Shown here one piece after another: positions 3,600 through 47,349 of a DNA stretch of 61,490 nucleotides (position 1 is its first letter; each line of letters begins with the position of its first letter). The notes below the pieces were generated by a model, which saw only the letters and a list, made by a program, of their open reading frames with translations, searched no databases and was not told the origin of the DNA. The DNA comes from Candidatus Saccharimonadia bacterium (lineage in GTDB: Bacteria > Patescibacteriota > Saccharimonadia > UBA4664): the NCBI GenBank assembly GCA_035544015.1, contig DATKIP010000113.1, positions 1-61,490 of the forward strand, in the 5' to 3' direction. The translations under genes and the position numbers were made by a program.

Positions 3600-3671
3600 G
3601 ACGGCGTGCCAGAGTGGCTATGGCTCCGACTGCAAATCGGGTGTATGGCGGTTCGAGTCCGCCCGCCGTCT
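3600..3671 (+). tRNA. tRNA-Cys (anticodon GCA), plus strand, antisense to the surrounding structural operon
   Basis: Acceptor stem GACGGCG/CGCCGTC. Anticodon arm UCCGA-CUGCAAA-UCGGG. T arm GGCGG-TTCGAGT-CCGCC. Discriminator U73, the CysRS identity base. It fills the 94-nt gap between two minus-strand genes. Confidence 0.8.
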
Positions 3672-3675
3672 CCGG

Positions 3676-14400: not shown

Positions 14401-16553
14401 GAGCCTTCAGCAGCCATCCTGGCGTCAGCAGCAGCCACGTTCTCGGCGTTGCGGGCCATCCACTGCCCGAAGCGCTCGGCCGGCACACCATCCTTGATCG
14501 CCTGAAGAATAGGCCCGCCCAGTCGTCCGCCAACCTTGATCGCGCCATAGCCCAGCCGCGCGGCGTCGCGAACGAGCGCGGCTGTCATGATGGCGTCGCC
14601 CAACCCGACCTCGCCCACAATGGGGAAGTTGCCTTTCGGCACCATCTCGTTCAACTGCCGGGCTAGCGTGGTGGACGGCGCCAGGTCGCCGACGACCCCG
14701 AGCGCACCCATCGCCGCCTCGCCGTAGTTGCCCTCGGCAACTCCTGACTGTGCGGCGCCAATGTTCCGGCCGAGCGAGCGCCCGGTCTCCACAATAGCGC
14801 GGTCGATGGTGGTCTCAGGCTGGCCCGAGTCCGGCAGTGGCGGCTTGCCGAGTAGTGGGCGCGTCACGGCGTTGGCGATGCCCCGGCCGATCGGGGTTGC
14901 GATACCCTCGGTGGCGACGGTGTTGCCGATATCCTGCACGGCGCCCTGGACATACCCGACAATGGCGCCGCCAGCGTCGTAGAGCGGCTTGAACGGGCTC
15001 TTGGGTTGTGCTGGCTGCTCCGGCCCGGCCTGCTCGAGCGGAGGCCCGTATGTCGGGCGTACGTCATTTGACGTACTCGGTGGCGTGTATGGAACCTGGG
15101 GCTCGTCGCGGGCGTCGCCGTAGGTGGACGGTACATCCGGCGGTACACTTACGGACCTCTGGGGGTACGCCTGAGGGGTCACCGGCGTACCGGCCGGCGG
15201 TACATCAGACGGTACGGCTTCCCACCGTCCGCTATCAGCGTCCCTCGGATCGTACTCCGCGCCGGTCGCCGTGTCCGGCCCCATCGTCGCGGCGAGCGGC
15301 TGGCGCTGCATATCCCCCATGTACCACGCGGACGAGCCCGGGGGTGGCCCGGTCTCCCCGTTGGCCGGGTCATAGGGCACATCGTTGCGCAGTGGCGGGG
15401 GAACAGGCTCGTTTGGGTCAGAGAGCCGCTGGACGTAGCGCTCGGAGTCGCTGGCATCCTCCGGCATCGGATGGGCGTCACCGAGCGCCATGCGTAGCGA
15501 GTCGCCCTGGGCGCTCTCCTGCGGCGTCGAGAGCACGGTCAGATCAGCCGCGCCGCCCGGCCGCTTCCTGAACGCCTCCGGGGTCATCGTGAACGTGTTA
15601 CCCCACTGGTCACGGACGGTGTACAGGCCAGAGGAGCCCCCGGCTGCCGGGGGAGTACCAGCAGCCGGGGGCGCAGGTGGGGCAGCCGGCGCAGGGTTCG
15701 CGGCCCCAGCGCCGGCGTTCGGAGATGCGCCGCCGTACTTCGAGGCGGCCTGACGGAAGAGTCGGACGTACTCGTGACCGTCCACCGATGAGCCGTCAGT
15801 GGCGCTGGTGACATTGCCCTGGCCGTCGATCGCCCCAAAGTACGCTGCTGCTGCCTTATCGGGGTCGCCGTACCGCCGCAGGGCGTCGCCGTAGACCTTG
15901 GCCCCCCGGAAGATGTTGGTACGCGGGTCTTTCGGGTTCTCGCCGGGCTTGAAGTGGAACGGCATCACCTGCATCAGCGACTGCGCACCGGCCGACGACA
16001 CGGCCTCGGGATCGCCGCCCGACTCGATCTCCATCAGCCCCTTGATCGCCCACTCGGGGACGTTCTCGGCGCGCGCCGCCTCAGCGACGATGGACGACCA
16101 GCGCTCGACATCGGGGCTGCCTGTGCCGCTTGACGGGGCATAAGAGGAAGGGGTTAGCGCAGCCGAGGGCGTTGGCAATCCGTTGGCGTTGGCGTTGGCG
16201 TTTTCACCAACGGGTGTTGGTGTTGGGCCAACGGGCTGCTTCGGAGCACTAACCCCCAGGCTCTCCAGGCTCGGGAGCGCCCACGATGGCGCGGTGTCGG
16301 CCACGGCCTGACGGGCGCGCTGAGGAACGCTGCCGAGCGCCGACATGACGGACGACGGTGCACCCGTGACGCCCAGACTTTCGAGGCTCGGAAGCTGCCA
16401 GGACGGCTGTTCGGGCTCAGGCTGGGGATCTGGCGTCGGGTTGATGGCCTGCGCGTACCGCTGCGTCACGTCGTCGACCAGCGACACCGTGCGCGCCCCG
16501 GCGGCAGCGGCATCGTTCTGGTTGAGCGTGCGGCGCGGCAGATAGAGCGGCAT
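11466..16553 (-). CDS. Giant internal virion protein with an SLT lytic transglycosylase domain, 1695 aa
   Basis: Track ORF 11466..16661. I prefer the ATG at 16553 (MPLYLPRRTL), one nt after the upstream stop. SLT signature WAIKGLMEIESGGDPEAVSSAGAQSLMQVMPFHF lies about 200 aa from the N-terminus. Confidence 0.85.
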   Translation of the reverse strand: MPLYLPRRTLNQNDAAAAGARTVSLVDDVTQRYAQAINPTPDPQPEPEQPSWQLPSLESLGVTGAPSSVMSALGSVPQRARQAVADTAPSWALPSLESLGVSAPKQPVGPTPTPVGENANANANGLPTPSAALTPSSYAPSSGTGSPDVERWSSIVAEAARAENVPEWAIKGLMEIESGGDPEAVSSAGAQSLMQVMPFHFKPGENPKDPRTNIFRGAKVYGDALRRYGDPDKAAAAYFGAIDGQGNVTSATDGSSVDGHEYVRLFRQAASKYGGASPNAGAGAANPAPAAPPAPPAAGTPPAAGGSSGLYTVRDQWGNTFTMTPEAFRKRPGGAADLTVLSTPQESAQGDSLRMALGDAHPMPEDASDSERYVQRLSDPNEPVPPPLRNDVPYDPANGETGPPPGSSAWYMGDMQRQPLAATMGPDTATGAEYDPRDADSGRWEAVPSDVPPAGTPVTPQAYPQRSVSVPPDVPSTYGDARDEPQVPYTPPSTSNDVRPTYGPPLEQAGPEQPAQPKSPFKPLYDAGGAIVGYVQGAVQDIGNTVATEGIATPIGRGIANAVTRPLLGKPPLPDSGQPETTIDRAIVETGRSLGRNIGAAQSGVAEGNYGEAAMGALGVVGDLAPSTTLARQLNEMVPKGNFPIVGEVGLGDAIMTAALVRDAARLGYGAIKVGGRLGGPILQAIKDGVPAERFGQWMARNAENVAAADARMAAEGSTVAPGVLGQIPEEFGRPYPPIKGRIGDFEQGALGEASAEMIRDSRMPREAVHPDLRAAGIGPEITPQVDTSSRLNAGFGVVPDEAPRTPRDIWESRLTEDLGVRPREEPITEPYTDSTGRQVTRARAAEWRVTEGPNGPEMAQYRPNFFGNAEEIPGTRQPLDAVYRVISREDYEGSLRRGFLQSDGRLNLDAREGTVASTFEPSPFYNPKNGEAVAVRIRVDPQDGWRLDHDGYIKTPKPIPVDRIERTLAYTTNEMGNAVRYAPGSQTASVTAGTLPPSAAPDRLSAVNRVLGQGVASSVSGGVGAAVNQEMNPDDPYAGVKGFAVGAVAPYAITKGMRAIAARQGGTAGADSGLLAMFGQAPGAGGFNPNAVQRAVQRAQRQASPGLSPLQWVRKLFAESGYSSMIGPATFTVNLTGNVAEPLYAIPKETTRGVARAISTGNASALREPGEMAAGAFHGLSQVGSAMVDALTASGKYAPTPGHEPLSAQTQNPIGKAITTGLEAGGRVFSALPDAVFGTIAQGAGEARAAAQQATDAGLKGTAWKQHVNDLLTDAANVRAGQLPTLSGTQTVIDEGAAYAKRQTFQDDLGTIGKKARNFATVGNMPVVGNLVTPFFNTPWNMNTRLAERSPIGFAMNSQGSKFDKMYDATLGSALMIGLAAGPVASGVITGGGPDDPQKKAEMRSQGWRPYSTLIDGVYVPNRVMGIYAPLLNAAADVHDSIAYSKDKSPTSIASNYAGRLGQQLQQQPYLQGISSIMQTIQAGYGGGLGSAAERYASSTITRMVPYAATARTIGTALDPNERTVDSGKNTPASTTISQQVQSGIGARGGLPIAQDVLGRPQENQQQGVKAVFARTSAEKPDPTVKAFLDAGVDIGFPKTKLTVDTIPMDLTPDETRRWNTYRGEILQRFSGNLTSRTFWSNPEARKVAMEDLLRQANDAADQRLMQSIGAGDIRRRVLEARQQQRETLRSGAP

Positions 16554-16554
16554 G

Positions 16555-16722
16555 TCAGAACCCCAGGCGTCCCTTCGGTCGCGGCAGCACCTGATGTTCG
16601 CGATAGTCGCCGGCGCCATCGGGCACCAGGATGAACGGCGCGGCGTCGGGCTCACGCTCATTCACGCCATGCGCCGAGCCGCTCATGCGATCGTCAACCC
16701 AGAAGTCCTCATCCCAGGCCAC
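16555..16722 (-). CDS. Small protein, 55 aa
   Basis: Last 55 codons of track ORF 16555..17541. GTG at 16722 downstream of AAGGAG. Sequence (M)AWDEDFWVDDRMSGSAHGVNEREPDAAPFILVPDGAGDYREHQVLPRPKGRLGF with high GC3. The rest of the track ORF overlaps the SDR gene out of frame. Confidence 0.5.
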   Translation of the reverse strand: MAWDEDFWVDDRMSGSAHGVNEREPDAAPFILVPDGAGDYREHQVLPRPKGRLGF

Positions 16723-16739: not shown

Positions 16740-17525
16740 TCACACCAGCATCCCCGTACGCGCCTGCCACTCTGGTGGAACCAGCGGGGGCGCCGGGATG
16801 ATGAGCTTGTACCGATGCCGCTGGCCCAGCAGGCTGTCGTTCAGGCTCTCGACGTTCTCCTGGTTGATTCTTGACCAGTCGTCGTGCTCGGCGCTGATCG
16901 TCTTGCCCGTCAGGCCCTTCGTCTCGGAGCTCAGCAGGCGCAGCACGCACGCTACCGCGCGATCCTTCTCGGGGCTCGGAGCATCCAAGTGGCCAGTCAT
17001 CGGCGTCGGCACGTACCCAGGCGCCACGCAGTTGACACTGACACGCGCCTGTTCCTCGGCCATCGTCTCCATCAGGCTCACCACGCCGGCCTTCGAGGCT
17101 GCGTAGGCCGAGCGGCCAGCGTACGGACCGAATGCCCCACCACCGGAGAACAGCAGGATACGGCCGTCTTCGGACTTCAGGAGATACGGTAGCACCGACT
17201 GTACGACGTGGAACGTCGCCTCCAGGTTGACCGTGATGGTGCGGACCCAGTCCTCGGCGTCCACATCGCCGACCCAGCCTTCCGGGCCGTACGTCGCGGC
17301 GCAGTGCACCAACGCGTCGAGCGGGTGGCCGAACTTGTACGCGTTGCCGATTCGCCCGGCCTGGTACTTCGAGACGAGGTCCGTCCCGATCCAGGAGAAC
17401 CGCTCGTGCTCGATGGCGGGCTTCCGCCGAGACGTGCCGAGCACTGACCAGCTGTCCTGTAGCAACGCCTCGGCGACGGCCTTGCCGATGCCGGAGGATG
17501 CGCCTGTTACCAGTGCGTGCTTCAT
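16740..17525 (-). CDS. Short-chain dehydrogenase/reductase (classical SDR), 261 aa
   Basis: MKHALVTGASSGIGKAV carries the TGxxxGxG cofactor motif and SAYAASKAG carries the YxxxK catalytic motif. The ATG at 17525 forms an ATGA overlap with the upstream gene. Confidence 0.85.
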   Translation of the reverse strand: MKHALVTGASSGIGKAVAEALLQDSWSVLGTSRRKPAIEHERFSWIGTDLVSKYQAGRIGNAYKFGHPLDALVHCAATYGPEGWVGDVDAEDWVRTITVNLEATFHVVQSVLPYLLKSEDGRILLFSGGGAFGPYAGRSAYAASKAGVVSLMETMAEEQARVSVNCVAPGYVPTPMTGHLDAPSPEKDRAVACVLRLLSSETKGLTGKTISAEHDDWSRINQENVESLNDSLLGQRHRYKLIIPAPPLVPPEWQARTGMLV

Positions 17526-17719
17526 GCTGCCCCCTGAGCACCTAACCACCCGAATAGGCAACAAAACGGCGAGGCGATTGCCATACCAATAGCGGACCAT
17601 GTGGCGAACTGCACGGCGTCAGCGACTGGCAGTAAGAGCACGGTGAGGCCGAAGACGCTACCAAACATGACCACGACGCCAATCACTGAAGCGACTAAAC
17701 ACCACATCAGAATCGTCAT
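17522..17719 (-). CDS. Small membrane protein, 65 aa, 2 predicted TM segments
   Basis: MTILMWCLVASVIGVVVMFGSVFGLTVLLLPV... The ATG at 17719 forms an ATGA overlap with the upstream stop. In frame with track ORF 17522..17887. Confidence 0.55.
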   Translation of the reverse strand: MTILMWCLVASVIGVVVMFGSVFGLTVLLLPVADAVQFATWSAIGMAIASPFCCLFGWLGAQGAA

Positions 17720-18150
17720 GCTGAGAACGCCTCCGCTTCGGCCTTCACTGGGCCCACGAATGCCAGACACGGGTACAGCCGCTCCCAGTACGCTGCCGGC
17801 CACGTCTCGCGCGCCTCCTGGTGCGCCCTGATCCACGCCTGATACTCGTCGCTGCCCCAGGTCGCACCCTGCGCCGTCACGCACCACTCGCAGTTGCAGA
17901 TGGACGGGACGACGGCTTGCGCCTTGATCGCGGCCATCACCTTCGGGTCAGACGTCCGCGCGATCCGAGCGGCGGCAGCCTCCGGCGAGTTGAATCGGCA
18001 CTTCGGCCAGCGGGCGTGCACACGCCAGGATCGGCCCGTCTCAGGGTCCAAGATCTGCGCACCGGGGATACTGCTCGTCCACTGTGGGCCAATCAGCGTG
18101 CTTGTGGGAGTCGTGACCATCGGACCTGATCGAACCGTTATTGTCATCAT
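17716..18150 (-). CDS. Hypothetical protein, 144 aa
   Basis: Track ORF, co-oriented, with 4-nt overlaps at both ends. Confidence 0.65.
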   Translation of the reverse strand: MMTITVRSGPMVTTPTSTLIGPQWTSSIPGAQILDPETGRSWRVHARWPKCRFNSPEAAAARIARTSDPKVMAAIKAQAVVPSICNCEWCVTAQGATWGSDEYQAWIRAHQEARETWPAAYWERLYPCLAFVGPVKAEAEAFSA

Positions 18151-19955
18151 GCTGCCATCGCCGATCCGCCACCGCCCCAGCGACTCCGGTTGTACCTAGA
18201 CATGACGGTCGTCCAGTCGTGGCCTTGAGCCTGTGCCGCTCCCCGCATCAACTCCTTGGTCATCGGGTCTTGCTGCTCGTACCAGCCGCTCGCCGCGCCT
18301 TGCGGGTTCTTGGCAAACTCGTTGGCCGTGTCGTAGATCTGCTGCTCTGGCGCGCTCAGGCTGCTCCGCAAGGCGTCGCCAGTCGGAATCATGTTGGCAG
18401 CGGCCAGCGCCCAGTTGGTCACAGGCTGCTGGGTCTGTGGTGCGGCAGCCGGGGCCATCGCGCTCGGGTTCTGCATCGGGGAGAGCGCGGCGCTGTCCAC
18501 GTAGCCGGGCCGCGAGGGTGTTGGCTGTGCGTCTGCAACCCCACCCGCCGGCGCCCCGCCGGCGCCGCTGCGCAGGTAGTAGCCGCCGCTCCCGTCGCCG
18601 GCTGGCGCAGACGGCTGGCTGCCCCGTGCCTGGTACCGCGCGAGCTCGGCTGCGTCGCTCGGGTCCACTGCCTCGCCTGCGGCACGCTGCTGGGCCTGCC
18701 GCTCCATGATCTGCTGGGCACGCGCCTGCTCCTGCGGGGAGAGCGGAATCACCGTCTGTGCGGCGCCGCGAGCCTGGTATCGCTGAAGCTCTGCCAGGTC
18801 TTCGGGGGACACGTCGCCCTCATGGGCTGCCGCGAGTGCAGCCCGACGCGAGGTTATCTCGTTGAACCGAGACTGCTCGGCCGGACTGAGCGCTCCTGGT
18901 TGCGGTCCGCCGGGGGGTGGCGATGCACCTGGACGCACCTCGCCCTGGCCGGGCTGCTGGATGCCCATCTGCCCGAGCACGTTCCCGAGGCTGTTCGCCT
19001 GGGGGGTGCCGTTGAACGCCGTGTTACCCTGCTGGCCACCCTGCGTCCAGGCGAGGCCGGGGATGTTGGCCAGGTTTCCAGCGACCCCGGAGGTCATCTG
19101 CTTGTACTTGATCCAGTCGGCCGGGTTACTTGCCAGGTCGATCGCCTTCGTGGTCCAATCCAAGAGCGCCTGGTTGCCGAACTTCTCGCGCTCCAGCGTC
19201 GCCTGCCCCGTGGGCGTGTAGCCGGTCGCGGTCGTCTGGAACTGGTCGTGCTGCTCGGCAAGGTTGGCCAGGAACTGCTCGCGCTGATCGACGCGGGTAA
19301 GGTCGTACTGCCTGGCCGTCTCCGCAAGCTTGGCCCTGTCCAATCCCATCGAATCGGCGAACTGGGCGAGCTGGTCCCCTCTGGAGAGGTCGTACTGCCT
19401 GGCGCCCTCGGTCAGTTGGGACTTCTTGAAGTCCAGATCTTGCGTGAACTGCGTCGCGCGCTGTCCGAACGTCGCATCAAATTGACGTTTGCTTTCCGCC
19501 GATGCGAGATCAAATTGCCTCTTTCCCTCAGCCGTAGTCGTGTCGAACTGCCGAGCAAGCTCCTGCTGCTTGAGGGTGAACTGCTGCATCGCCTGCTGGG
19601 TGGTCGTGTCGAATTGCCGCTTGTCCTCCGCGAGTTTGGCCTGGGAAAGCTGGAGCATCCCACGGTTGTACGCGGCGTTCGCCTCGGCCGTGCCCTTGGT
19701 CACGAGGTCGCGCTGGCGTGACTGCTCAAGCTGTTGAAGCTGGATCTGGTACTGCTTGTCAGACTCGGCGCGGCGCTGGCGCTCTTGCTCGACGAACGCC
19801 TGCGTCCAGTCGTACGGGTTCTGCTGGGCAGCCGCGCTTTGATCGGGCACGCCCGTGGCACCCTGCGATCCGCGCGTGTCATAAGCCGGCGGCACGCCGA
19901 CGCTAGGATCGGTGGTGAAGGGGCGCATGTTCGCCCAGTAGCCCGGATCAATCAC
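18147..19955 (-). CDS. Gln-rich repeat-containing virion/internal protein, 602 aa
   Basis: Track ORF. Residues about 110-230 carry at least 6 degenerate repeats of the type (K/A)RQ(F/Y)D(x)n (KRQFDTTT, ARQFDTTT, KRQFDLAS, KRQFDATF, ARQYDLSR, ARQYDLTR). Confidence 0.7.
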   Translation of the reverse strand: MIDPGYWANMRPFTTDPSVGVPPAYDTRGSQGATGVPDQSAAAQQNPYDWTQAFVEQERQRRAESDKQYQIQLQQLEQSRQRDLVTKGTAEANAAYNRGMLQLSQAKLAEDKRQFDTTTQQAMQQFTLKQQELARQFDTTTAEGKRQFDLASAESKRQFDATFGQRATQFTQDLDFKKSQLTEGARQYDLSRGDQLAQFADSMGLDRAKLAETARQYDLTRVDQREQFLANLAEQHDQFQTTATGYTPTGQATLEREKFGNQALLDWTTKAIDLASNPADWIKYKQMTSGVAGNLANIPGLAWTQGGQQGNTAFNGTPQANSLGNVLGQMGIQQPGQGEVRPGASPPPGGPQPGALSPAEQSRFNEITSRRAALAAAHEGDVSPEDLAELQRYQARGAAQTVIPLSPQEQARAQQIMERQAQQRAAGEAVDPSDAAELARYQARGSQPSAPAGDGSGGYYLRSGAGGAPAGGVADAQPTPSRPGYVDSAALSPMQNPSAMAPAAAPQTQQPVTNWALAAANMIPTGDALRSSLSAPEQQIYDTANEFAKNPQGAASGWYEQQDPMTKELMRGAAQAQGHDWTTVMSRYNRSRWGGGGSAMAA

Positions 19956-20109: not shown

Positions 20110-20628
20110 TCAGCCTGCCGCCGGCGCTTGGAGTCCGGCCGGCTGCCCCATGCCTTGCGATACCACGGGCTGTCCGTCTTGTTCTGGGGCGGACGTGCCA
20201 CCTTGATAGCTCTGCTCGCCCCGCGCCGCTTGCGTGACATCCTGCTCCCCCTTCTGCATCGCTTTCGGTGGTCCAGCACGGGTGTGCTTCATGGCCCAGT
20301 TCGCAATGTCCGCCTGCGTGGTGCGCCCCTCGCCCGTGGACATATCCCAGCGATCGGGATAGACCTGCTGGCTGATCTTCAAGCCGATGTCCAGCGCCAA
20401 CTCGGGCGTGAGCTCCGTAAGCCCGCGCTGCTGCATCTCCTGCTGCCACATCTGGGCCTCTTGCGCTGGCGTCTTAGCCCGCTCCCAGAATCGTCGCCGC
20501 TCCTCGTCAGGCGGCACCTCAGCAATAGCGTCACGCTTCAGCATCTCGGCAAGGTGCGGAACCAGACTCTTCCGACCCTGGACCATCGTCTCGGCCATGA
20601 TGTCGCGCGGAGCGGCTGCGTCAGGCAT
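20110..20628 (-). CDS. Hypothetical head-module protein, 172 aa
   Basis: In frame with track ORF 20110..20928. The ATG at 20628 shares a base with the portal stop (TGATG). The upstream track extension is Arg/Gly shadow sequence overlapping portal. Confidence 0.65.
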   Translation of the reverse strand: MPDAAAPRDIMAETMVQGRKSLVPHLAEMLKRDAIAEVPPDEERRRFWERAKTPAQEAQMWQQEMQQRGLTELTPELALDIGLKISQQVYPDRWDMSTGEGRTTQADIANWAMKHTRAGPPKAMQKGEQDVTQAARGEQSYQGGTSAPEQDGQPVVSQGMGQPAGLQAPAAG

Positions 20629-22766
20629 CAGACCGGCGCTCCCTGCACTGGCTGCTGCAACCCGCCGACTGACGCCTGACGCCCGGCCGCCGCGATGGCC
20701 GCGTACTGCGAGTTGGCCGGGTTCTGCATCCCCGTGGCCGCCTGGGCGCCGGGGTCCGAGCTCCCGCCCATCGGCGGATTCAGCCCGGCCGTCATGCCGA
20801 TCGGCTCGCCCTGCTGACCGGCCGCGCCGGACTGCTGCGCCCCGAACAGCGCGACCAATTCCTTGTCCCCGAGGTATTCGGCGGCGTCCTTCATGATGAT
20901 CTGGAGCGCAGGCGGCGTCTTCTTCCACCGCTGGTAAAGCAATTGCGCCATGTAGCGGTCAGGGTCTTTGACCCCAATCGCCTGGCACCAGTCCTCGTCC
21001 GTGATGGCGTCCTTCTCCCAGAACCCGAACAACTGCGCCTTGGCAGCCAGGTCGTCGCCGAGATTCTGAGGATAGGAGGCTTCGAGGTCGAACGACTCCT
21101 CGCCCTCGGGGCCGAGCCAACGCGGGTCCAATTCGATCAGCGCGCGGGTGACGCTGCCGCCGTCCGATGGCGTCTCGGGATTGCCGAGCACCACCACGTT
21201 CTTGCCGGTCTTCCTGGAGACCCCGCAGCAGACCTCAAGCTTCAGTTCCCCCACCCGGCGCCAGACGTTGAGCACCGATCGACGGATGTCGGACACCCCA
21301 GCCAGCGTATCGGCCGAGACCACGCTGCGCTCGATCGCCGAGCCCGCGTCACCGCCACCACGGGCCAGCGGCGAGACCAGATCCTGGCTGTTCGACCCGT
21401 TGAGCGCCCCGATCATCTCGTTGACGTCGCGGCCAGATCCTGGGTGTTGGGCCGGGATCATCGTCCCCCAGACTGGGGTGATCTTGAAGGGCTCGATGGT
21501 GAGCGGGTTCTGCTTGACGAACTCCATCCACGCCTGCTGCATGGCGGTGTCGCGAACGGAGTCTGGCATCTGCATGAACCAGGCGAGCATGCCCTCGGAC
21601 CAGCCGGCGTACGCCTTGCCCGTCAGGAACGCGTCGCCCGCAAGCCATGATCGCCCAAACGGGAACGTGTACGGCATCGCCCGCTTATCCGGGTCGGTGC
21701 TGAACCAGCGCCAGCCGTAGAACGGCACGACGGGCAGCGTGCGGAGGCCGCACTGCTTGTACAGGTCGATGACAGCCGCGTCCTCGAAGCCCGGCCGCTC
21801 GACGCGGGTGTGCTTGCCCGCGAGTGAATAGGCCACGTAGGGGTACAGGTTGCCGTCCGCGTCCTGGTCGGTCAGCCACGCCTGGTACAGCCAGAGGTCG
21901 CCGGTCTCCATGTCGCCTTCGGTCGTGTCCTTCGGCTCCAGATGATCGTGTAGGCCGTCGATGATGTAGTTGCGGCGCATCGCGTCAGAGGGAGCCATGC
22001 GCGTCCGCGAAATGATCCCGTCGACCGTGACGTCGGGGCCCTTGATGAGCGGGTTGATCGGGACGTACTGGAGACGAGACAGCAGTTGCGTGTCAGAGGG
22101 GAAGTTGCGGGCTCGGAGCGCCTTGACGTGGCGGTCGTACGCTCGACGACTCTGCTTCTCGTCGGTGCCGAAGTCCGCGTCAAACTTCTCTTCATCGAAG
22201 TCGTCGCCCTGCTCGTCCTTCGCCGTGTCGAGCGCGTCCTGGTACTCGTGGCCCTGCGCGTTGCGACGGAACTCCGGCTTGATCCGCTCGGCCTTGTCGT
22301 CCTCGTAGTAGTGGCCCGGCACCCGCGCAAAGCGCGCCACCTCAGGCACCTCGATGGCGCAGCCTTCGGCCTCGACCAGTGCCAATTCGGTCAGGTCGCG
22401 ATGCGAGAGCGAGCGCGAGACGGACGGGTTGCTGAACCGCTCGATGCGCGACGAGTTGCGCTCGTGGAGGTCGGACGTACCGAGCTTCGGCCGCTTCAAC
22501 TCTGGCTCGTCCTTGGTTTCCGTGCCGGCCAGTTTGTTCAGGAGCTGCATCACGCTGGTGTACTTCTGGGCAGTGTCGACGCGGAACGCCTCGCAGTCCT
22601 CGCGCTTGGCCAGCACGTCCGGCAAAGGCGCCTTCATCTCGCCGATCAGGAGCGAGCGGGCATCGGAGATCCGACCGTGCGAGCCCGTGTACCGGCCGTT
22701 GTGCTTCGTGAACAGCTCGGGGATCGCTTCGCCCACGATGTTGTGGCGGTTGGTGTACTCAGCCAT
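20628..22766 (-). CDS. Portal protein, 712 aa
   Basis: Called from size and its position downstream of terminase. The ATG at 22766 (MAEYTNRHNIVGEAIPELF) is coupled TGATG to the upstream ORF. The family call is positional, not motif-based. Confidence 0.7.
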   Translation of the reverse strand: MAEYTNRHNIVGEAIPELFTKHNGRYTGSHGRISDARSLLIGEMKAPLPDVLAKREDCEAFRVDTAQKYTSVMQLLNKLAGTETKDEPELKRPKLGTSDLHERNSSRIERFSNPSVSRSLSHRDLTELALVEAEGCAIEVPEVARFARVPGHYYEDDKAERIKPEFRRNAQGHEYQDALDTAKDEQGDDFDEEKFDADFGTDEKQSRRAYDRHVKALRARNFPSDTQLLSRLQYVPINPLIKGPDVTVDGIISRTRMAPSDAMRRNYIIDGLHDHLEPKDTTEGDMETGDLWLYQAWLTDQDADGNLYPYVAYSLAGKHTRVERPGFEDAAVIDLYKQCGLRTLPVVPFYGWRWFSTDPDKRAMPYTFPFGRSWLAGDAFLTGKAYAGWSEGMLAWFMQMPDSVRDTAMQQAWMEFVKQNPLTIEPFKITPVWGTMIPAQHPGSGRDVNEMIGALNGSNSQDLVSPLARGGGDAGSAIERSVVSADTLAGVSDIRRSVLNVWRRVGELKLEVCCGVSRKTGKNVVVLGNPETPSDGGSVTRALIELDPRWLGPEGEESFDLEASYPQNLGDDLAAKAQLFGFWEKDAITDEDWCQAIGVKDPDRYMAQLLYQRWKKTPPALQIIMKDAAEYLGDKELVALFGAQQSGAAGQQGEPIGMTAGLNPPMGGSSDPGAQAATGMQNPANSQYAAIAAAGRQASVGGLQQPVQGAPV

Positions 22767-23209
22767 CACCACTTCCCCGGACGGCCAGTATTCGGCACAG
22801 AGTGGATATGGACGCCTTCTCGGGTACAGAGTTGGCAGAATGGAGCGGTCTGGCGGAGCGGAGCAACCCACATCCCGGCGTGCGTGCTGGTCCCCCAAGA
22901 GACACACGACGCACCCTGAGTACTCACTCCCCACGATGGGGTGAGCGGCGACCCACTCGTGCTGTACAGCACGGCCACCGGCGCGTACGTTCCAGTCGCG
23001 GCCGTCAGACGTTGCCACTGCAACTGTTGCTCTCGCGCCTCGATGGCGCGGCGCGACCAGATTTCTGGGATATACCGCTCATCACACGGATCAGTGATCT
23101 TCGGAGATGCCGGCGTTGCCACCAGCGCCGGTACTTCCGAAGAGCGCACCAGCGTGCCGCCCAATGACCACGCGCCCGGCCTGACCATGCCCTGCCCGTA
23201 CTCGGCCAT
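22766..23209 (-). CDS. Hypothetical protein, 147 aa, carrying a capsid N-arm-like segment (ERYIPEIWSRRAIEAREQQL)
   Basis: In frame with track ORF 22766..23407. The ATG at 23209 is coupled TGATG to the upstream ORF. The segment resembles capsid residues YIPALWSKYVIRAREQRL. Confidence 0.5.
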   Translation of the reverse strand: MAEYGQGMVRPGAWSLGGTLVRSSEVPALVATPASPKITDPCDERYIPEIWSRRAIEAREQQLQWQRLTAATGTYAPVAVLYSTSGSPLTPSWGVSTQGASCVSWGTSTHAGMWVAPLRQTAPFCQLCTREGVHIHSVPNTGRPGKW

Positions 23210-23598
23210 CAGGCGAGGGCCTTCCGCGACACCGCAGGTAACCGAACCGATGCGCCGTGCCAGATCAGATCTCGGATGTTCGACTTGGCCATCAGCTTCG
23301 AGAAAACGAGATCCTGCCCGGCCATCCCCTTGGCGTACTTCGACCAGATCTCGGGGATGAAGTCGGCCGCCGATGCCGTATCGACCGCGAACGCCGTGTA
23401 CGACCACGTCCCAATGGTGAGGGGCTGTTCAGAGACTGCCAGGATCTCGGCGACTTCCTCCTCGGTGGGCAGCGCGATGGGGCCGCGCGGCACGCCGAAG
23501 TCCAGCCGCTCGGACGGGATGAACAGCGGCGCGGCCACGATCGACAGGCCCGTGCCGCCCAACACCTTCAGGAAGCTGCGTCGATTCATGCCAGCCAT
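23209..23598 (-). CDS. Tat-signal protein, 129 aa, with a C-terminal capsid N-arm paralogue
   Basis: (MAG)MNRRSFLKVLGGTGLSIVAAPLFIPS is a textbook twin-arginine signal (RRxFLK plus an h-region). The C-terminal roughly 53 aa AADFIPEIWSKYAKG...HGASVRLPAVS align with capsid residues 14-62. The ATG at 23598 is coupled TGATG to the upstream mini-ORF. Confidence 0.65.
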   Translation of the reverse strand: MAGMNRRSFLKVLGGTGLSIVAAPLFIPSERLDFGVPRGPIALPTEEEVAEILAVSEQPLTIGTWSYTAFAVDTASAADFIPEIWSKYAKGMAGQDLVFSKLMAKSNIRDLIWHGASVRLPAVSRKALA

Positions 23599-23714
23599 CA
23601 GTCGCTCATGATCTCCAGGAACTGGTCCCAGGTCACCAGTCCCGATCGCCACACCTGCCGCAGTCGCTCGGCGTCAGCGCGGTAGTTGAAGAACCACGCC
23701 CAGTAGTTCACCAC
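23598..23714 (-). CDS. Mini-protein, 38 aa (below the track cutoff)
   Basis: GTG at 23714/23711. Sequence (M)VNYWAWFFNYRADAERLRQVWRSGLVTWDQFLEIMSD with high GC3. Its stop overlaps the next start. Confidence 0.45.
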   Translation of the reverse strand: MVNYWAWFFNYRADAERLRQVWRSGLVTWDQFLEIMSD

Positions 23715-23721
23715 GTCGCGC

Positions 23722-24021
23722 CTACGCACCCGTCAACCGCCTGACTCTTTGGCAAGGTTGTTCAGGGGTGCAGTCGGGGCAGGCTTTTGGCCCCCACAGT
23801 TGGCCGCACAGTCCCATCGGGTTGTCCCGCTGCGCCGGCGCATGCCGCTCGGCGTTCTCGAAGTCCCACGTCTCGGGCTTCATCAACTCGGCGTCCTGAG
23901 CCATCGCGACAGTTTCAGCTATCCACGTAGTAACCTCGTTCATCTCACGAGCGAAGCGCGGGAATACGACATACGTCATCTCGCCCGCGTGGGGGATCGT
24001 CATCTTCGGCGGTGGTCGCAT
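23722..24021 (-). CDS. Hypothetical protein, 99 aa
   Basis: Track ORF between terminase and portal. Confidence 0.6.
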   Translation of the reverse strand: MRPPPKMTIPHAGEMTYVVFPRFAREMNEVTTWIAETVAMAQDAELMKPETWDFENAERHAPAQRDNPMGLCGQLWGPKACPDCTPEQPCQRVRRLTGA

Positions 24022-24309
24022 CTACCTGACCCCGTGCTGGGCAAGATGAGAGACCAGCGCATCCTCGGCCAGTTGCTGCGCTGGAGTGGCGCCCTTCTTC
24101 GAGAACATGGCGCTGGTGCCGCATCGGTCACAGGTCCACCTCGCCCAATCGGTCGGCGGAAGTCCCGTAGGTGGCGGCGCGACAAGGTCCGGGAGTACGG
24201 CATTGAGGACGCCGAACAACTCCGCGATCCAGGAGGTGTCCCCGGCCCAGGCGTCGCTCTCGGCCAGCGCGAGTCGCTTCCTAATCTCTTCGGGCGTCGG
24301 CATCACCAC
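24022..24309 (-). CDS. Hypothetical protein, 95 aa
   Basis: Track ORF that abuts its neighbours. Confidence 0.6.
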   Translation of the reverse strand: MVMPTPEEIRKRLALAESDAWAGDTSWIAELFGVLNAVLPDLVAPPPTGLPPTDWARWTCDRCGTSAMFSKKGATPAQQLAEDALVSHLAQHGVR

Positions 24310-24659
24310 GACGGCCTCTGTCCTACGGGCACCGCATGCATGTGGATATCGGGGCGATCACACAGTAGGCAGACGAACCCCGAGGCGGATACTGCCCAGG
24401 CTTCGTGAGCCTGTTCGTGCGCTTGCAACGCCACTAGTATTCGATCCGGAGCATCGTCGAGACGACCAGGAACTCGCCGACAGCGCGGGTCAGTTGCATA
24501 CTCCCGGCGCCCGCTCTCGCAGTGGAAGCGCGCCTGTAAACGAAGGCTCACCACCCCAGATTGCCGGTCATAGTGTTCAAACCACGTATTCACCGATGTG
24601 CGGGTCCGCGCCGCGATAGGACGCACCTCAGCCAGCAGGCGGTGGATCTGGTCGTACAT
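24303..24659 (-). CDS. Hypothetical protein, 118 aa
   Basis: In frame with track ORF 24303..24683. The ATG at 24659 shares a base with the terminase stop. Confidence 0.6.
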   Translation of the reverse strand: MYDQIHRLLAEVRPIAARTRTSVNTWFEHYDRQSGVVSLRLQARFHCESGRREYATDPRCRRVPGRLDDAPDRILVALQAHEQAHEAWAVSASGFVCLLCDRPDIHMHAVPVGQRPSW

Positions 24660-26122
24660 CACCGCACCCCCGTCGACTGCCACTCGCCGAACAGCGCAGC
24701 GAGCCGGGCATCCTTATCGCTCTTACCGTTCAGGCCGGTGAAGTCGGGCACGGGTGTCGGCTGCGTCGGCCGGCCGTTCGTCGCACCAGTGCTAAAGCCG
24801 AGGGGCATAGATGTGGCGAGCGCCGAGAAGTCTGGGATCGACTCCATCGCCATCAGGCCGTAGCGGAGCGCGTCGTACTCGTCATCCGGGCCATCCGTAT
24901 CGACGTCCTCAACCTTGTGAGCGTCGTAGACCAGGGATGGCAGGTTCTTGATGAGCTGGATGCACGACGAGAACACCTGGAGATGCGGACGACCGTCCGG
25001 CGCATCTTTCAGGTACTCACGAACTCGGGCCAGCCCGTTCAGGCGATCGTTGTTGGCGTGCGTGAGCGTGACGCCGTTCTCGAAGTAGATCTGCGCGATC
25101 GACTTGCCAGAGTCAGGCGACTTGATCCACATAGCAGGGTCCGCAACATGCAGCCTGATCTTCTCGTCCTCGCCCGTCAGACTGACCACAGCCTGCGCTT
25201 GCTGCGAGGCAAGCAGGCCGGGCTGGCTGATCTCGCGGTAGATGTAGACCCGGGGCACGCTCTTGTCGAGCGCGGCCCATAGCGTGACGAACGGCCGAGC
25301 AGAGCCGTAGTCCGTCATCCGTACCCGCTGCCAGTCCTTGTCAAGCGGGATCGGATCAATGACGTGCTTCTCGCGGCGCCACTCGGTGAGCACCTGGCCG
25401 GCGAACACGTCCCAGTCACCGTCACGCAGTGCTCGCCGATCCTGCTCCGGTAAGCTGTTGAGCACCATCATGTACTGCGGGTCGGCGTCAAGCAGAATCT
25501 GGTTGTCGTAGATGTTCGAGAAGTGGAAGCAGCGCGTCGGCAGCGGGTCGCCCTGCTCGTTCCGTGGTGTCCACGGCGCGCAGTCTCGGGTACCGCGCGA
25601 CAGGAACCGCTCTTTGACCCAGGCGTGGCCGATGCCGCCTGGGTTGAACGTGGTACGCAGGTATGGTTTGATCTCGGGCACCGACGACCGACACTGCGCC
25701 ATCAGGAACGTGTACTGCGTCTCGGAGAACTCTTCGAGCTGATCGAACGCCATGAAGTGATACTCATGGCCGTGGTAGATCCGCTTGTCCTCTTCGTTCT
25801 CGCAGTGGCGCATCGAGATCATCGCACCGGACGGGAACGTCCATCGGGCGTGGTCGCCGTTCCACTTGGCTCCCAGCGGCGGGAACCACTCCCAGGCCCG
25901 GTCCATGACTTCCTGGAGGCGCTTGTACGTGCGGCGGAAGATGATCGCCCGGTAGCGCGAGTGCCCAACGCCGCGCGTGGCTTCCATCAGCATCGCCAGC
26001 GTCTTACCAGGGCCTTTGGTGCCGCCGAAGCCGGACTCGAAAGCAGGGCAAGCGTGCCACGGCTCCTGCTTCGATTGGGGGCGATAGACGAGGCGTGGCG
26101 GCGCCGATGCGACAGCCATCAA
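24659..26122 (-). CDS. terL: Terminase large subunit, 487 aa
   Basis: Walker A-like GFGGTKGPGKT. Walker B/coupling region HEYHFMAFDQLEE. The C-terminal nuclease-type region has conserved acidic residues. It follows a small-terminase-like gene. Confidence 0.85.
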   Translation of the reverse strand: MMAVASAPPRLVYRPQSKQEPWHACPAFESGFGGTKGPGKTLAMLMEATRGVGHSRYRAIIFRRTYKRLQEVMDRAWEWFPPLGAKWNGDHARWTFPSGAMISMRHCENEEDKRIYHGHEYHFMAFDQLEEFSETQYTFLMAQCRSSVPEIKPYLRTTFNPGGIGHAWVKERFLSRGTRDCAPWTPRNEQGDPLPTRCFHFSNIYDNQILLDADPQYMMVLNSLPEQDRRALRDGDWDVFAGQVLTEWRREKHVIDPIPLDKDWQRVRMTDYGSARPFVTLWAALDKSVPRVYIYREISQPGLLASQQAQAVVSLTGEDEKIRLHVADPAMWIKSPDSGKSIAQIYFENGVTLTHANNDRLNGLARVREYLKDAPDGRPHLQVFSSCIQLIKNLPSLVYDAHKVEDVDTDGPDDEYDALRYGLMAMESIPDFSALATSMPLGFSTGATNGRPTQPTPVPDFTGLNGKSDKDARLAALFGEWQSTGVR

Positions 26123-26460
26123 CCGACCTTCCGATCAGGGAGGTAGATCGTCACGCCGCCAGACACCTGCACATCGGCCTCGGTCTTCTCGGTCGGCTTA
26201 CCCATCACGCGGTTGATGAGGTACTCGTTTGCCTGGCGGTCGGGGGGCTTTCTGTACACGGAGGGCTCTCCGTCCTCGCCAGGGATGTCGCCCTCGACCA
26301 TCACGCCATCGGCCAGGACGAACAGGTTCGCCAGTAGGTGAGGGAGGCGATCAACGATCCGCTTCTCAGCCTCGCGGATCGGCGTGTCGAGCAGCGACTT
26401 CAACTCACCGGGCTTCCGCCCAGCCCCACCGCGCGCCCCGCCATGTCCGTTCGCCGCCAA
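26119..26460 (-). CDS. Terminase small subunit (putative), 113 aa
   Basis: Basic Gly-rich N-terminus (GGARGGAGRKPGE). ATGA overlap with terL. The call is positional. Confidence 0.5.
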   Translation of the reverse strand: MAANGHGGARGGAGRKPGELKSLLDTPIREAEKRIVDRLPHLLANLFVLADGVMVEGDIPGEDGEPSVYRKPPDRQANEYLINRVMGKPTEKTEADVQVSGGVTIYLPDRKVG

Positions 26461-46908: not shown

Positions 46909-46928
46909 CGGACGGACAGGATACGCGG

Positions 46929-47013
46929 CGGAGCGCCCGGGAGTCGAACCCGGCGGGAGTTGCCCCCTTACCTCATTAGCAGTGAGGCGCCTTAGCCGAT
47001 CGGCATACGCTCC
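46929..47013 (-). tRNA. tRNA-Ser (anticodon GCU), class II
   Basis: Acceptor stem GGAGCGU/GCGCUCC. Anticodon arm CCUCA-CUGCUAA-UGAGG. Long variable arm. T arm CCGGG-UUCGACU-CCCGG. Discriminator G73. Confidence 0.8.
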
Positions 47014-47016
47014 GAG

Positions 47017-47088: not shown

Positions 47089-47089
47089 C

Positions 47090-47348: not shown

Positions 47349-47349
47349 G

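What the first reader, a model, noticed from the sequence alone, without database searches (positions are those of the whole stretch)
22766..23598. Tat-signal protein and a second ORF upstream of portal both carry copies of the capsid N-terminal arm
Two tandem, translationally coupled ORFs lie between the terminase block and portal.
- ORF 23209..23598 opens with MNRRSFLKVLGGTGLSIVAAPLFIPS. This is a textbook twin-arginine export signal and is unexpected in a head-assembly module.
- Its last roughly 53 aa (AADFIPEIWSKYAKGMAGQDLVFSKLMAKSNIRDLIWHGASVRLPAVSRKALA) align without large gaps to capsid residues 14-62 (AAVYIPALWSKYVIRAREQRLCYAKLFTRKYEQDAPYGATINVPGVSHLTAR). By eye about one third of positions are identical, including IP.(I/L)WSKY and GA(T/S).(N/R).(V/L)P.VS.
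- The next ORF (22766..23209) again contains ERYIPEIWSRRAIEAREQQL, matching capsid YIPALWSKYVIRAREQRL.

The genome therefore holds three copies of the capsid N-arm, two of them detached from any capsid body. They could be decayed capsid duplications. They could also be functional N-arm mimics that dock to scaffold, portal or procapsid, or an exported or superinfection-related protein using the arm as an interaction module. I know of no described system of this kind.
Basis: partly seen in the sequence, partly recalled or inferred. Interest (0 to 1): 0.72.

Follow-up and report, generated by a model that had tools for sequence, protein, structure and literature searches.

The report
Phage export-tagged protein carrying capsid fragment
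A small, conserved phage gene next to the portal gene joins a bacterial twin-arginine (Tat) export tag to a copied piece of the phage's own capsid protein, while the second ORF beside it is only a lineage-specific insertion scar; the gene belongs to an undescribed family whose function is unknown.

Summary
The sequence observation holds. ORF A (23209..23598, minus strand) and ORF B (22766..23209) both contain stretches homologous to the N-terminus of the capsid protein (4290..5156). For ORF A the shuffle Z is 9-13 and the family profile hits the capsid at E 9e-17. For ORF B, Z is 7.4 and E is 2e-6.

The two ORFs are different things.
- **ORF A is a real gene.** It has strong GC3. Relatives keep it intact, with dN/dS of 0.2-0.5 on the capsid-like part. 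It belongs to an unannotated family of about 96 clusters.
- **The family has a near-invariant N-terminal module.** This is a Tat-type leader (RRxFLK, a hydrophobic region, a small-x-small site followed by Pro) plus the motif PLFIPSERLDFGVP, joined to a highly variable C-terminal cargo.
- **The leader is far more conserved than core phage proteins.** It is 68-77% identical between phages whose portals and terminases are only about 25% identical.
- **ORF B is a scar.** It is a 443-bp insertion absent from the two closest relatives and flanked by a 14-bp duplication of the ORF A stop/portal start. It has weak codon bias and no homologue among 5.8 billion proteins.

Function is inferred, not shown. 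The most likely role is a Tat-targeted, probably uncleaved, envelope-tethered late accessory protein. A role as a head-assembly "arm mimic" is not excluded.

The parts
23209..23598 (-). ORF A, 129 aa. A real, conserved gene made of a Tat-type leader, the PLFIPSERLDFGVP motif, a linker and capsid-derived cargo.
   Evidence: GC3 is 0.85-0.97. Homologues P0002 (68% identity), P0003 (54%) and P0004 (51%) are intact. dN/dS is 0.07-0.34 on the leader and 0.2-0.53 on the arm.
23530..23598 (-). Twin-arginine leader, aa 1-23: MAGMNRRSFLKVLGGTGLSIVAA, ending in V-A-A.
   Evidence: Pfam TAT_signal scores 17.8 bits and TIGR01409 scores 15.8 bits, both just under their cut-offs; relatives score 17.3-25.8 on TIGR01409. 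R, R and F are at least 90% conserved across 96 family representatives. 38 of 96 match Pfam TAT_signal.
23488..23529 (-). Conserved 14-aa motif PLFIPSERLDFGVP (aa 24-37), directly after the small-x-small site, so Pro sits at +1.
   Evidence: The motif is present in about 70 of 96 representatives by strict regular expression, and in variant form in most of the rest. Variants with a long spacer keep ASA|PLF, AAA|PLF, PSA|PLF and similar. P, L, G, V and P are invariant or nearly so.
23374..23433 (-). ORF A aa 56-75 (SEQPLTIGTWSYTAFAVDTA). It resembles capsid residues 83-102, the strand after the E-loop, and lies before the arm, so the order is permuted relative to the capsid.
   Evidence: tblastn E 0.016. 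Capsid-family HMM domain E 0.057 and 0.007. The same block occurs in P0002 and P0190, and P0150 has it after the arm. The evidence is weak. A collinear alignment to the first residues of the Pf-WMP3 capsid is an alternative.
23221..23385 (-). ORF A aa 72-126. This is a copy of the capsid N-arm plus the first E-loop strand (capsid aa 9-62).
   Evidence: The arm profile scores 52-63 bits on capsids of the window's own clade and 24-27 bits on capsids 43-49% identical (Spearman 0.76).
23198..23211 (-). Left copy of the 14-bp direct repeat, TGATGGCCGAGTAC. It holds the stop of ORF A and codons 1-4 (MAEY) of the original portal start, now the start of ORF B.
   Evidence: the repeat finder family D1, spacing 443. 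Alignment with L006 and L007.
22766..23209 (-). ORF B, 147 aa. This open frame was created by a 443-bp lineage-specific insertion and is an orphan.
   Evidence: It is absent from L006 and L007, where the ORF A homologue overlaps the portal start. No protein homologue was found at E <= 10. GC3 is 0.57-0.81, apart from the first 21 codons, against 0.85-0.95 in genes here. 1.9% of composition-matched shuffles stay open.
23006..23110 (-). ORF B aa 34-68. This degenerate capsid N-arm fragment (…KITDPCDERYIPEIWSRRAIEAREQQLQWQRL) is closer to capsids than to ORF A.
   Evidence: Capsid-family HMM E 3e-5 over model positions 5-39. Smith-Waterman gives 79 against the capsid (Z 7.4) and 50 against ORF A (Z 2.9). 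DNA identity to the other copies is 54-61%.
23098..23143 (-). Imperfect 21-bp-arm hairpin inside the insertion.
   Evidence: inverted repeat I1. RNA fold gives -31.4 kcal/mol with z = -2.66. There is no T-run and no terminator call.
22755..22768 (-). Right copy of the direct repeat, TGATGGCTGAGTAC. It holds the stop of ORF B and the true start of portal.
20628..22766 (-). Portal gene, 712 aa. It is translationally coupled to ORF B here and to the ORF A homologue in relatives.
   Evidence: It is 93% identical to the L006 fragment and 68% to L007, and 25-26% identical to the 746-748-aa proteins that follow TerL in L001 and L013. It has no Pfam or PHROG hit. The assignment rests on position and size.
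23598..23729 (-). Upstream 43-aa ORF whose stop overlaps the ORF A start (TGATG).
   Evidence: It is conserved in L006 (56% identity, E 1e-9). GC3 phase supports it.
4290..5156 (-). Major capsid protein, 288 aa, with the HK97 fold. This is the source family of the arm copies. The N-arm and first E-loop strand lie at 4971..5132 and the post-E-loop strand at 4851..4910.
   Evidence: phrog_267 E 2e-26. A source names some homologues N4-gp56 family major capsid protein. The AF2 model has pLDDT 77.6, with strands at residues 53-57, 84-88 and 91-100 and the spine helix at 111-132. Foldseek top hits are cyanophage A4 and mycobacteriophage Che8 capsids (E 4e-19 and 9e-18).

Best explanation
**ORF A: what it is (shown)**
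- It is a genuine late gene.
- It belongs to an undescribed family of small proteins (about 60-260 aa) found in the packaging/portal gene block of phages with N4-gp56-type capsids.
- The family is defined by a near-invariant N-terminal module. This is a twin-arginine leader (N/D-R-R-S/G-F-L-K, an Ala/Gly-rich hydrophobic stretch and a small-x-small site), followed directly by Pro and the motif PLFIPSERLDFGVP.
- After the module comes a highly variable cargo.

**The cargo (shown and inferred)**
- In the window's clade the cargo was built from the 5' end of a capsid gene of the same clade. It comprises the N-arm helix and first E-loop strand, preceded by a probable copy of the strand that follows the E-loop.
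- This cargo has since evolved fast, but under purifying selection.

**How it most likely works (inferred)**
- The leader takes the protein to the host Tat translocase.
- Pro at +1 of the small-x-small site should block signal peptidase I.
- The protein would then stay tethered in the cytoplasmic membrane like a Rieske-type uncleaved Tat anchor. The conserved motif would sit at the outer face and the cargo outside the cytoplasm.
- There it would act on a conserved host envelope component, for example in late-infection exclusion, envelope or lysis control, or interference with Tat or signal peptidase. It would not act inside the procapsid.

**ORF B**
- It is not a partner gene. It is a recent 443-bp illegitimate-recombination insertion into the ORF A/portal junction, flanked by a 14-bp duplication of that junction.
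- It carries a degenerate capsid 5' fragment.
- It stays open from the old coupled start to the new one, so ribosomes still reach the portal start.
- It is probably functionless. It shows how capsid fragments arrive at this locus.
For: **ORF A is a real gene**
- GC3 is 0.85-0.97.
- Four diverged intact homologues exist.
- dN/dS is below 1 in every segment.

**Family and leader**
- 119 representatives reach E <= 1e-3 in 1.84e9 proteins. About 96 of them share the module at their N-terminus.
- 38 of 96 match Pfam TAT_signal and 2 match the Rieske Tat-anchor model.
- Of the six relatives tested, five pass the curated TIGR01409 cut-off.
- The conserved positions (R, R, F, L) are the Tat consensus S-R-R-x-F-L-K. 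A Pro lies about 17 residues after RR, where Tat signals carry a helix breaker (PMC7317946).
- Long-spacer variants keep ASA, AAA or PSA immediately before PLF.
- The leader is 68-77% identical between the window and L001 or L015. Portals are 25-26% and TerL 25-27% identical. This points to a slowly evolving host partner rather than a phage partner.

**Cargo comes from the capsid**
- The best match is to the window's own capsid clade.

**Other cargo types**
- Five members carry the start of a pectate-lyase/tailspike domain, and other types exist.

**ORF B is an insertion**
- It is an orphan with poor codon bias.
- It is not a copy of ORF A.
Against: - The window's own protein falls just below both curated Tat cut-offs.
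- No SignalP or TatP run was possible, and no experiment was done.
- The host is unknown. No relative was found in 185,579 reference genomes, so the behaviour of its Tat system and signal peptidase cannot be checked.
- The gene always sits in the head/packaging block and is translationally coupled to portal in three lineages. This fits an assembly role as well.
- Capsid-like pieces recur in several rearranged forms across the family: P0150, P0158, P0190, P0214, P0222 and P0243. The arm is under purifying selection. Both suggest the cargo matters and is not a mere passenger.
- The claim that Pro at +1 blocks signal peptidase I rests on my recollection of E. coli work (Barkocy-Gallagher and Bassford 1992; Nilsson and von Heijne 1992). 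It was not read here.
- AF2 gave no usable model of ORF A (pLDDT 36.8).
Confidence: 0.5

Rival explanations
1. ORF A is a cytoplasmic head-assembly or encapsidation factor that works by N-arm mimicry. The conserved N-module binds a conserved partner at the portal vertex, or acts after ejection. The capsid-arm cargo plugs into the scaffold or the inner capsid lattice, so the protein is recruited into procapsids or nucleates shell growth at portal. The Tat resemblance would then be secondary.
For: - The gene always lies in the packaging/portal block and is stop/start-coupled to portal.
- The cargo is the capsid N-arm, which in P22-like and T7-like systems contacts the scaffold (established knowledge, not tested here).
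- The arm is under purifying selection.
- It is most similar to the capsids of its own clade.
- Capsid-like pieces recur in several family members.
Against: - The family's conserved positions are exactly the Tat consensus, and many members pass curated Tat models.
- The leader is much more conserved than portal, TerL or the capsid. That is hard to explain through a phage partner which has itself diverged to 25%.
- Most family members have no detectable capsid similarity (88 of 96), and some carry tailspike-type fragments instead.
- The gene's position relative to terS, terL and portal is not fixed.
Confidence: 0.2
2. Only the leader plus motif is functional. It would act as a small membrane or Tat/signal-peptidase-directed peptide. 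The C-terminal cargo would be evolutionary debris, picked up by illegitimate recombination from whichever phage genes were at hand and kept merely as a tolerated tail. The capsid similarity then has no functional meaning in either ORF.
For: - Cargo turnover is extreme while the leader is nearly invariant.
- Cargo includes truncated starts of unrelated structural proteins, namely capsid and pectate-lyase fold.
- Blocks are shuffled between relatives: P0005 against P0009, and ORF A against P0150.
- The ORF B insertion shows such capture happening at this very junction.
- The arm evolves much faster than portal: 54% against 93% identity between the window and L006.
Against: - dN/dS on the arm is 0.2-0.53, not about 1, although dS is near saturation for some pairs.
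- The reading frame and the IPEIWS...Q..V...L...P.V pattern are kept in four diverged lineages.
Confidence: 0.25
3. The similarities are chance, or the ORFs are not genes.
For: - ORF B alone has weak codon bias and no homologues.
- Spurious long ORFs are common in this 65% GC window.
Against: - Shuffle Z is 7-13 with 0 of 500 shuffles reaching the score.
- Profile E-values are 9e-17 and 2e-6 within the window.
- Hits to capsids are significant database-wide.
- ORF A is conserved with dN/dS below 1.
Confidence: 0.02

Closest known systems
Uncleaved twin-arginine signal anchors (Rieske iron-sulphur proteins; Pfam UCR_Fe-S_N)
   Same: Both have an N-terminal S-R-R-x-F-L-K motif and a moderately hydrophobic stretch that would stay as a membrane anchor. 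Two family members hit the Rieske Tat-signal model. Review: PMC7317946.
   Different: - ORF A has no cofactor-binding domain.
- It is phage-encoded in a late structural operon.
- An extra invariant 14-aa motif follows the anchor.
- Export has not been tested.
Small phage-encoded envelope-targeted accessory proteins (T5 Llp, Cor of T1/phi80-like phages, P22 SieA, T4 Imm/Sp and antiholin RI)
   Same: These are small phage proteins sent to the membrane or periplasm by an N-terminal signal. They evolve fast and are often embedded among structural genes. This comparison rests on my own knowledge; RI is covered in PMC8385771, listed.
   Different: - Those use Sec signals, lipoboxes or SAR/TM domains, not a Tat leader.
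- None is built from a capsid fragment.
- ORF A has no promoter or terminator of its own and is translationally coupled to its neighbours.
Intragenomic capsid paralogues (T4 gp24 against gp23; T7 gp10A/10B)
   Same: Each is a second protein in the same genome that shares capsid sequence.
   Different: Those are complete shell-forming HK97-fold proteins. ORF A keeps only about 55 residues of N-arm and first E-loop strand plus a probable 20-residue strand, and ORF B keeps about 30 residues. Neither has a spine helix or A or P domains.
N4-gp56 / cyanophage A4 / mycobacteriophage Che8-type HK97-fold major capsid proteins
   Same: This is the source family of the copied segment. The ORF A family profile aligns to residues 4-48 of 8e16 and 11-66 of 9jwb.
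   Different: ORF A is not a capsid protein. It carries a fragment fused to an export-type leader.
Precursors with proline at +1 of the signal-peptidase site (engineered MBP and Lep constructs in E. coli)
   Same: The family invariably places Pro straight after a small-x-small site. From memory, such precursors are not cleaved and inhibit signal peptidase I.
   Different: Those are laboratory mutants.

Membership tests
Twin-arginine (Tat) signal peptide (TIGR01409 / PF10518) | A twin-arginine motif of the S/T-R-R-x-F-L-K type close to the N-terminus | tested here: met
   ORF A has N-R-R-S-F-L-K at aa 5-11. R, R and F are at least 90% conserved across 96 representatives. The consensus is taken from PMC7317946.
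Twin-arginine (Tat) signal peptide (TIGR01409 / PF10518) | Score above the curated model cut-off | tested here: inconclusive
   The window protein scores 15.8 against 16.7 (TIGR01409) and 17.8 against 22.7 (Pfam), so it fails narrowly. Relatives P0002, P0003, P0004, P0009 and P0012 score 17.3-25.8 and pass TIGR01409. 38 of 96 members match Pfam TAT_signal at E <= 0.01.
Twin-arginine (Tat) signal peptide (TIGR01409 / PF10518) | A moderately hydrophobic h-region with a helix breaker 12-17 residues after RR, and a small-x-small (AxA) c-region | tested here: met
   The h-region is VLGGTGLSIVAA, followed by Pro about 17 residues after RR. V-A-A, or in relatives ASA, AAA or PSA, precedes it. The site is followed by Pro, so cleavage is doubtful.
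Twin-arginine (Tat) signal peptide (TIGR01409 / PF10518) | Tat-dependent export of the protein | not testable with these tools
   This needs reporter fusions in tat+ and tat- hosts. SignalP and TatP were not available.
HK97-fold major capsid protein (N4-gp56 family, PF25209/PF19821, phrog_267) | A full fold with N-arm, E-loop, spine helix, P domain and A domain | tested here: not met
   ORF A and ORF B match only capsid-model positions 9-62 (plus 83-102) and 5-39 of 287. The capsid itself (4290..5156) meets the criterion.
Autonomous moron (accessory gene cassette with its own signals) | Its own promoter and terminator flanking the gene | tested here: not met
   No promoter-like or terminator-like site was found in 22400..24400. 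Both ends of the gene are stop/start overlaps. In L019 and L020 the gene follows a gap of about 270 bp and is first of its same-strand block.
Portal-associated minor head protein (SPP1 gp7 / Mu F-like) | Sequence membership (Pfam Phage_Mu_F) and a position next to portal | tested here: not met
   There is no Pfam or PHROG hit of that kind. The gene is adjacent to portal in some lineages only.
Anti-phage defence or known defence-associated proteins (PADLOC) | A match to any PADLOC model | tested here: not met
   None was found for ORF A, ORF B or four relatives.

The most novel reading that the evidence does not exclude
The family could be a phage system that uses the host Tat pathway, or docks on TatBC, to present mimics of the phage's own virion proteins. 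These would be the capsid N-arm here and tailspike or fibre starts elsewhere. The cargo would be kept matched to the cognate structural protein by repeated capture or co-evolution. Such a system could titrate or mislead a host or rival-phage factor that recognises those structural proteins, or could tether head assembly to the membrane.
Probability: 0.15. Interest if true: 0.85.

Novelty: new variant of a known kind. Interest (0 to 1): 0.55.

Why it matters
- **A Tat leader in late phage genes.** Tat leaders are hardly documented in tailed-phage late genes. Here one is conserved across phages whose portals have diverged to 25% identity, which implies an important interaction with a host machine. 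If the leader is an uncleavable Tat anchor, or a blocker of signal peptidase or Tat, that would be a new way for a lytic phage to manipulate the envelope late in infection.
- **Evolution of a new gene from a structural gene.** The locus shows a short 5' piece of the capsid gene captured, rearranged and kept under selection as the body of a new small protein. Right beside it lies a fresh, still functionless capture (ORF B).
- **Annotation.** The family of about 96 clusters has no Pfam, PHROG or NCBIfam model. Defining it would improve annotation of a widespread soil and groundwater phage group.

Tried and rejected
1. **ORF B as a decayed tandem copy of ORF A.** A shared 12-nt TTGGGCGGCACG (LGGT) and similar TGATGGC junctions suggested this. 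The N-terminal protein comparison gives Z = -0.1, local DNA alignment Z = 1.5 and global Z = -0.2. Rejected.
2. **More capsid remnants in ORF B.** I looked for similarity extending past the arm helix, or hidden in the other two frames. It is not significant (Z 1.1, -0.4 and 1.0).
3. **Recent gene conversion between the three arm copies.** DNA identity is only 54-61%. Rejected.
4. **AF2 model of ORF A** from a 4-sequence alignment. pLDDT was 36.8, so it is unusable and no fold search was run on it.
5. **Cargo of other family members as copies of neighbouring genes.** tblastn of P0009, P0010, P0014 and P0150 against their own roughly 11-21 kb loci found nothing. Their capsid genes lie outside the fetched range, so cargo-capsid co-variation could not be tested.
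6. **Scans for the leader module.**
   - IMG/VR gave 1 irrelevant hit.
   - 185,579 reference genomes gave none.
   - JGI metagenomes gave 3 short contigs.
   - No host or prophage was identified.
7. **Database and pattern scans.**
   - PADLOC found nothing.
   - Rfam found nothing.
   - The promoter and terminator scan found nothing.
8. **Literature.** Searches for phage Tat substrates, or for Tat-linked superinfection exclusion, found nothing relevant.
9. **TIGTW block: collinear or permuted.** A pairwise alignment to Pf-WMP3 gp10 allows a collinear reading. The capsid-family profile and 13 of 18 identities (counted by eye from the sequences) to ITIGTWSYVAMAVETATA in clade capsids favour capsid 83-102. 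I lean towards the permuted reading but it is not settled.

Full report
**Anatomy.** The window is 65% GC and almost all genes lie on the minus strand. Reading in the direction of transcription, the order is:
- a terS-like ORF (26119..26460)
- TerL (24659..26122; Terminase_6N, phrog_979)
- three small ORFs
- ORF A (23209..23598)
- ORF B (22766..23209)
- a 712-aa portal-sized gene (20628..22766)
- about 15 kb further on, the major capsid gene (4290..5156).

The capsid assignment is secure. It hits phrog_267 at E 2e-26, and a source names some of its homologues N4-gp56 family major capsid protein. The AF2 model has pLDDT 77.6. Foldseek top hits are the cyanophage A4 and mycobacteriophage Che8 capsids.

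tblastn of the capsid against the whole window finds ORF A (capsid 9-61, E 1e-5), ORF B (capsid 17-39, E 1e-3) and a third block in ORF A (capsid 83-104, E 0.016).
- Smith-Waterman scores exceed all 500 shuffles. Z is 9 for ORF A against the capsid, 13 for the arm regions alone, and 7.4 for ORF B against the capsid.
- A profile of the arm from four family members finds the window's capsid at E 9e-17 and ORF B at 2e-6 among 756 six-frame ORFs. Nothing else scores below E = 2.
- In reverse, a 121-sequence capsid profile finds ORF A and its three close relatives at E 1e-9 to 3e-11, and ORF B at 3e-5.
- Against 1.84 billion representative proteins, the C-terminal half of the family profile hits the N-termini of capsid proteins.
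- Against the PDB it hits residues 4-48 of 8e16 and 11-66 of 9jwb.

**ORF A is a functional, conserved gene.**
- Third-position GC is 0.85-0.97, as in the neighbouring genes.
- Homologues at 68%, 54% and 51% identity are intact.
- Nei-Gojobori dN/dS is 0.07-0.34 on the first 38 codons, 0.13-0.47 on the linker and 0.20-0.53 on the capsid-like part.
- The capsid-like part evolves fast. It is 54% identical between the window and L006, while the portal fragments are 93% identical.

**ORF B is an insertion scar.** In L006 and L007 the ORF A homologue is followed at once by portal, with a TGATG overlap. The three-way DNA alignment shows 443 extra bases in the window. They are bounded by TGATGGCCGAGTAC (23198..23211) and TGATGGCTGAGTAC (22755..22768). 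That repeat is the ORF A stop plus the first four portal codons, so ORF B begins MAEY like portal.

ORF B has no homologue at E <= 10 among 5.8 billion proteins. After its first 21 codons its GC3 is 0.57-0.81. Only the short stretch around YIPEIWSRRAIEAREQQL is recognisable, and it is closer to capsids than to ORF A.

The frame stays open from the old coupled start to the TGA that overlaps the portal ATG. Only 1.9% of composition-matched shuffles do this. I take it to mean that only an insertion preserving read-through to the portal start was tolerated, or that the piece came from coding DNA in this frame.

**ORF A belongs to a larger, undescribed family.** The first search showed eleven more proteins sharing only the first 35 or so residues. 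The exhaustive profile search raised this to about 96 representatives of 50%-identity clusters. The conserved module has these parts:
- M-(N/D)-R-R-(S/G)-F-L-K
- an Ala/Gly-rich hydrophobic stretch ending in a small-x-small triplet
- P-L-(F/Y)-(I/V)-P-(S/A)-(E/D/Q)-R-L-D-(F/Y/M)-G-V-P.

About a third of members have an 8-20 residue spacer between the hydrophobic stretch and the motif. They still place ASA, AAA, PSA or similar directly before PLF.

The Tat assignment has family-level support:
- 38 of 96 members match Pfam TAT_signal.
- Two match the Rieske Tat-anchor model.
- Five of six tested relatives pass the curated TIGR01409 cut-off, while the window's protein misses it by 0.9 bit.
- The conserved residues are those of the Tat consensus described in PMC7317946.

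**The leader is far more conserved than the core phage proteins.** Between the window and the L001, L013 and L015 phages, portals are 25-26% identical and TerL 25-27%. The leader is 68-77% identical in L001 and L015. This argues that its partner is a slowly evolving host component rather than a co-diverging phage protein. The gene's position also moves:
- ahead of a small terS-position ORF (L016, L019)
- between a terS-like ORF and terL (L005)
- between terL and portal (window, L006, L007)
- just after portal (L001-L004, L010, L013, L015).

**Cargo.** Eight of 96 representatives have capsid-profile hits. By eye, several others (P0190, P0214, P0222, P0243) carry capsid-like pieces such as ITINTWSY or FADLVDRSYEEE in other arrangements. 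P0150 has the arm followed by the post-E-loop strand, whereas ORF A has that strand before the arm. Five members instead carry the start of a pectate-lyase/tailspike-type domain. Single members hit tail-fibre or minor-tail PHROGs. Blocks are also shuffled between P0005 and P0009.

The arm profile of the window's clade scores 52-63 bits on capsids at least 66% identical to the window's, and 24-27 bits on capsids 43-49% identical (Spearman 0.76). The fragment therefore came from, or has co-evolved with, a capsid of this clade. The three copies in the window are only 54-61% identical at the DNA level, so there has been no recent conversion.

**Mapping onto the capsid model.** The AF2 model has a low-confidence N-arm, strands at residues 53-57, 84-88 and 91-100, and the spine helix at 111-132. 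On this map ORF A carries the N-arm and the ascending E-loop strand, plus a probable copy of the descending strand. It lacks the E-loop tip, the spine helix and the A and P domains. It cannot form shell.

**Mechanism.** What is shown:
- the gene is real
- the leader is Tat-like and strongly constrained
- the cargo is capsid-derived and under selection
- ORF B is an orphan insertion.

What is inferred:
- The leader delivers the protein to the Tat translocase.
- Pro at +1 prevents signal-peptidase cleavage. This rests on my recollection of E. coli work and was not read here.
- The protein therefore stays anchored, with the motif and cargo outside the cytoplasm, where it would meet a host envelope component.

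That topology is hard to reconcile with docking to scaffold, portal or procapsid. The constant association with the packaging/portal block, the coupling to portal and the recurrence of capsid-like cargo keep an assembly or encapsidation role alive (about 0.2). A third reading gives the cargo no role of its own (about 0.25).

**Novelty.** No Pfam, PHROG, NCBIfam or PADLOC family covers these proteins beyond the Tat-signal models. The literature searches found no phage Tat substrate of this kind. I rate it a new variant of a known kind, namely small phage-encoded envelope-targeted accessory proteins. Its unusual features are a Tat leader, an invariant post-leader motif and cargo exapted from structural genes. 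Interest is moderate to high, limited by the lack of any functional evidence and by an unknown host.

Noticed in passing
window 16740..17600 (-): This ORF has an N-terminal TGASSGIGKA motif typical of short-chain dehydrogenases/reductases. It sits among the large structural genes, between a 1731-aa protein and the portal-side block. That is an unusual passenger for a virion module. It was identified by eye only.
   Followed up: no
window 18147..19955 (-): This 602-aa Gln-rich protein has many (K)RQFD-type repeats (e.g. ARQFDTTTAEGKRQFDLASAESKRQFDATFGQ). Similar RQFD-containing proteins of about 270-324 aa follow the Tat-like gene in L001, L013 and L015, but BLAST did not link them to the window's protein.
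   Followed up: partly
window 46927..47433 (-) and 3600..3673 (+): A cluster of five tRNA genes (Ser, Cys, Leu, Leu, Ser) lies on the gene strand. A lone tRNA-Cys call lies on the opposite strand between structural genes.
   Followed up: no
window 23098..23143 and 22958..22973: Inside the ORF B insertion there is a 21-bp-arm imperfect hairpin (-31.4 kcal/mol, z -2.66). There is also a perfect 16-nt palindrome, seen as a self reverse hit. No terminator tail and no Rfam match were found.
   Followed up: partly
P0005 vs P0009 (L001 9359..9865): Two relatives share the blocks EELWESIRPDIERDMAEQFE and FVMPR..EWERGIARFM..FGA.EYRID, but in opposite order. Short modules are therefore shuffled within the cargo of this family.
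   Followed up: partly
P0141, P0177, P0138 and two others (family members): The cargo of five members is the first 80-120 residues of a pectate-lyase/rhamnogalacturonase-like beta-helix (Pfam PF12708), a fold typical of tailspikes. This is too short to be a complete domain.
   Followed up: partly
L020 109..336: A 75-aa gene with an Acb2/Tad1-hairpin Pfam hit (anti-CBASS/Thoeris sponge family) lies about 700 bp upstream of the Tat-like gene in one relative.
   Followed up: no
L004 686..1486, L018 10889..11563, L003 6155..6958, L001 12217..13020: Opposite-strand ORFs lie next to structural genes of relatives. Two are homing-endonuclease-type genes: a weak HNH_3 match in L004 and LAGLIDADG_1 in L018, the latter directly after the capsid gene. 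The 267-aa ORFs in L003 and L001 have no Pfam hit on record.
   Followed up: no
window 11466..16661 (-); L018 1..4278; L015 3897..11125; L016 16860..20660: Giant proteins (1731 aa in the window; 2307, 2623 and 4621 aa in relatives) lie downstream of portal. In relatives they carry SLT and ddrB-ParB domains, and in L016 also helicase/SNF2-type and RNA-ligase-type domains. They are probably ejected internal virion proteins.
   Followed up: no
window 23594..23604, 23205..23215, 22762..22772: The same TGATGGC stop/start junction (Met-Ala start overlapping a TGA stop) recurs at three consecutive gene boundaries. Such repeated junctions offer microhomology for the kind of illegitimate recombination that produced ORF B.
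   Followed up: partly
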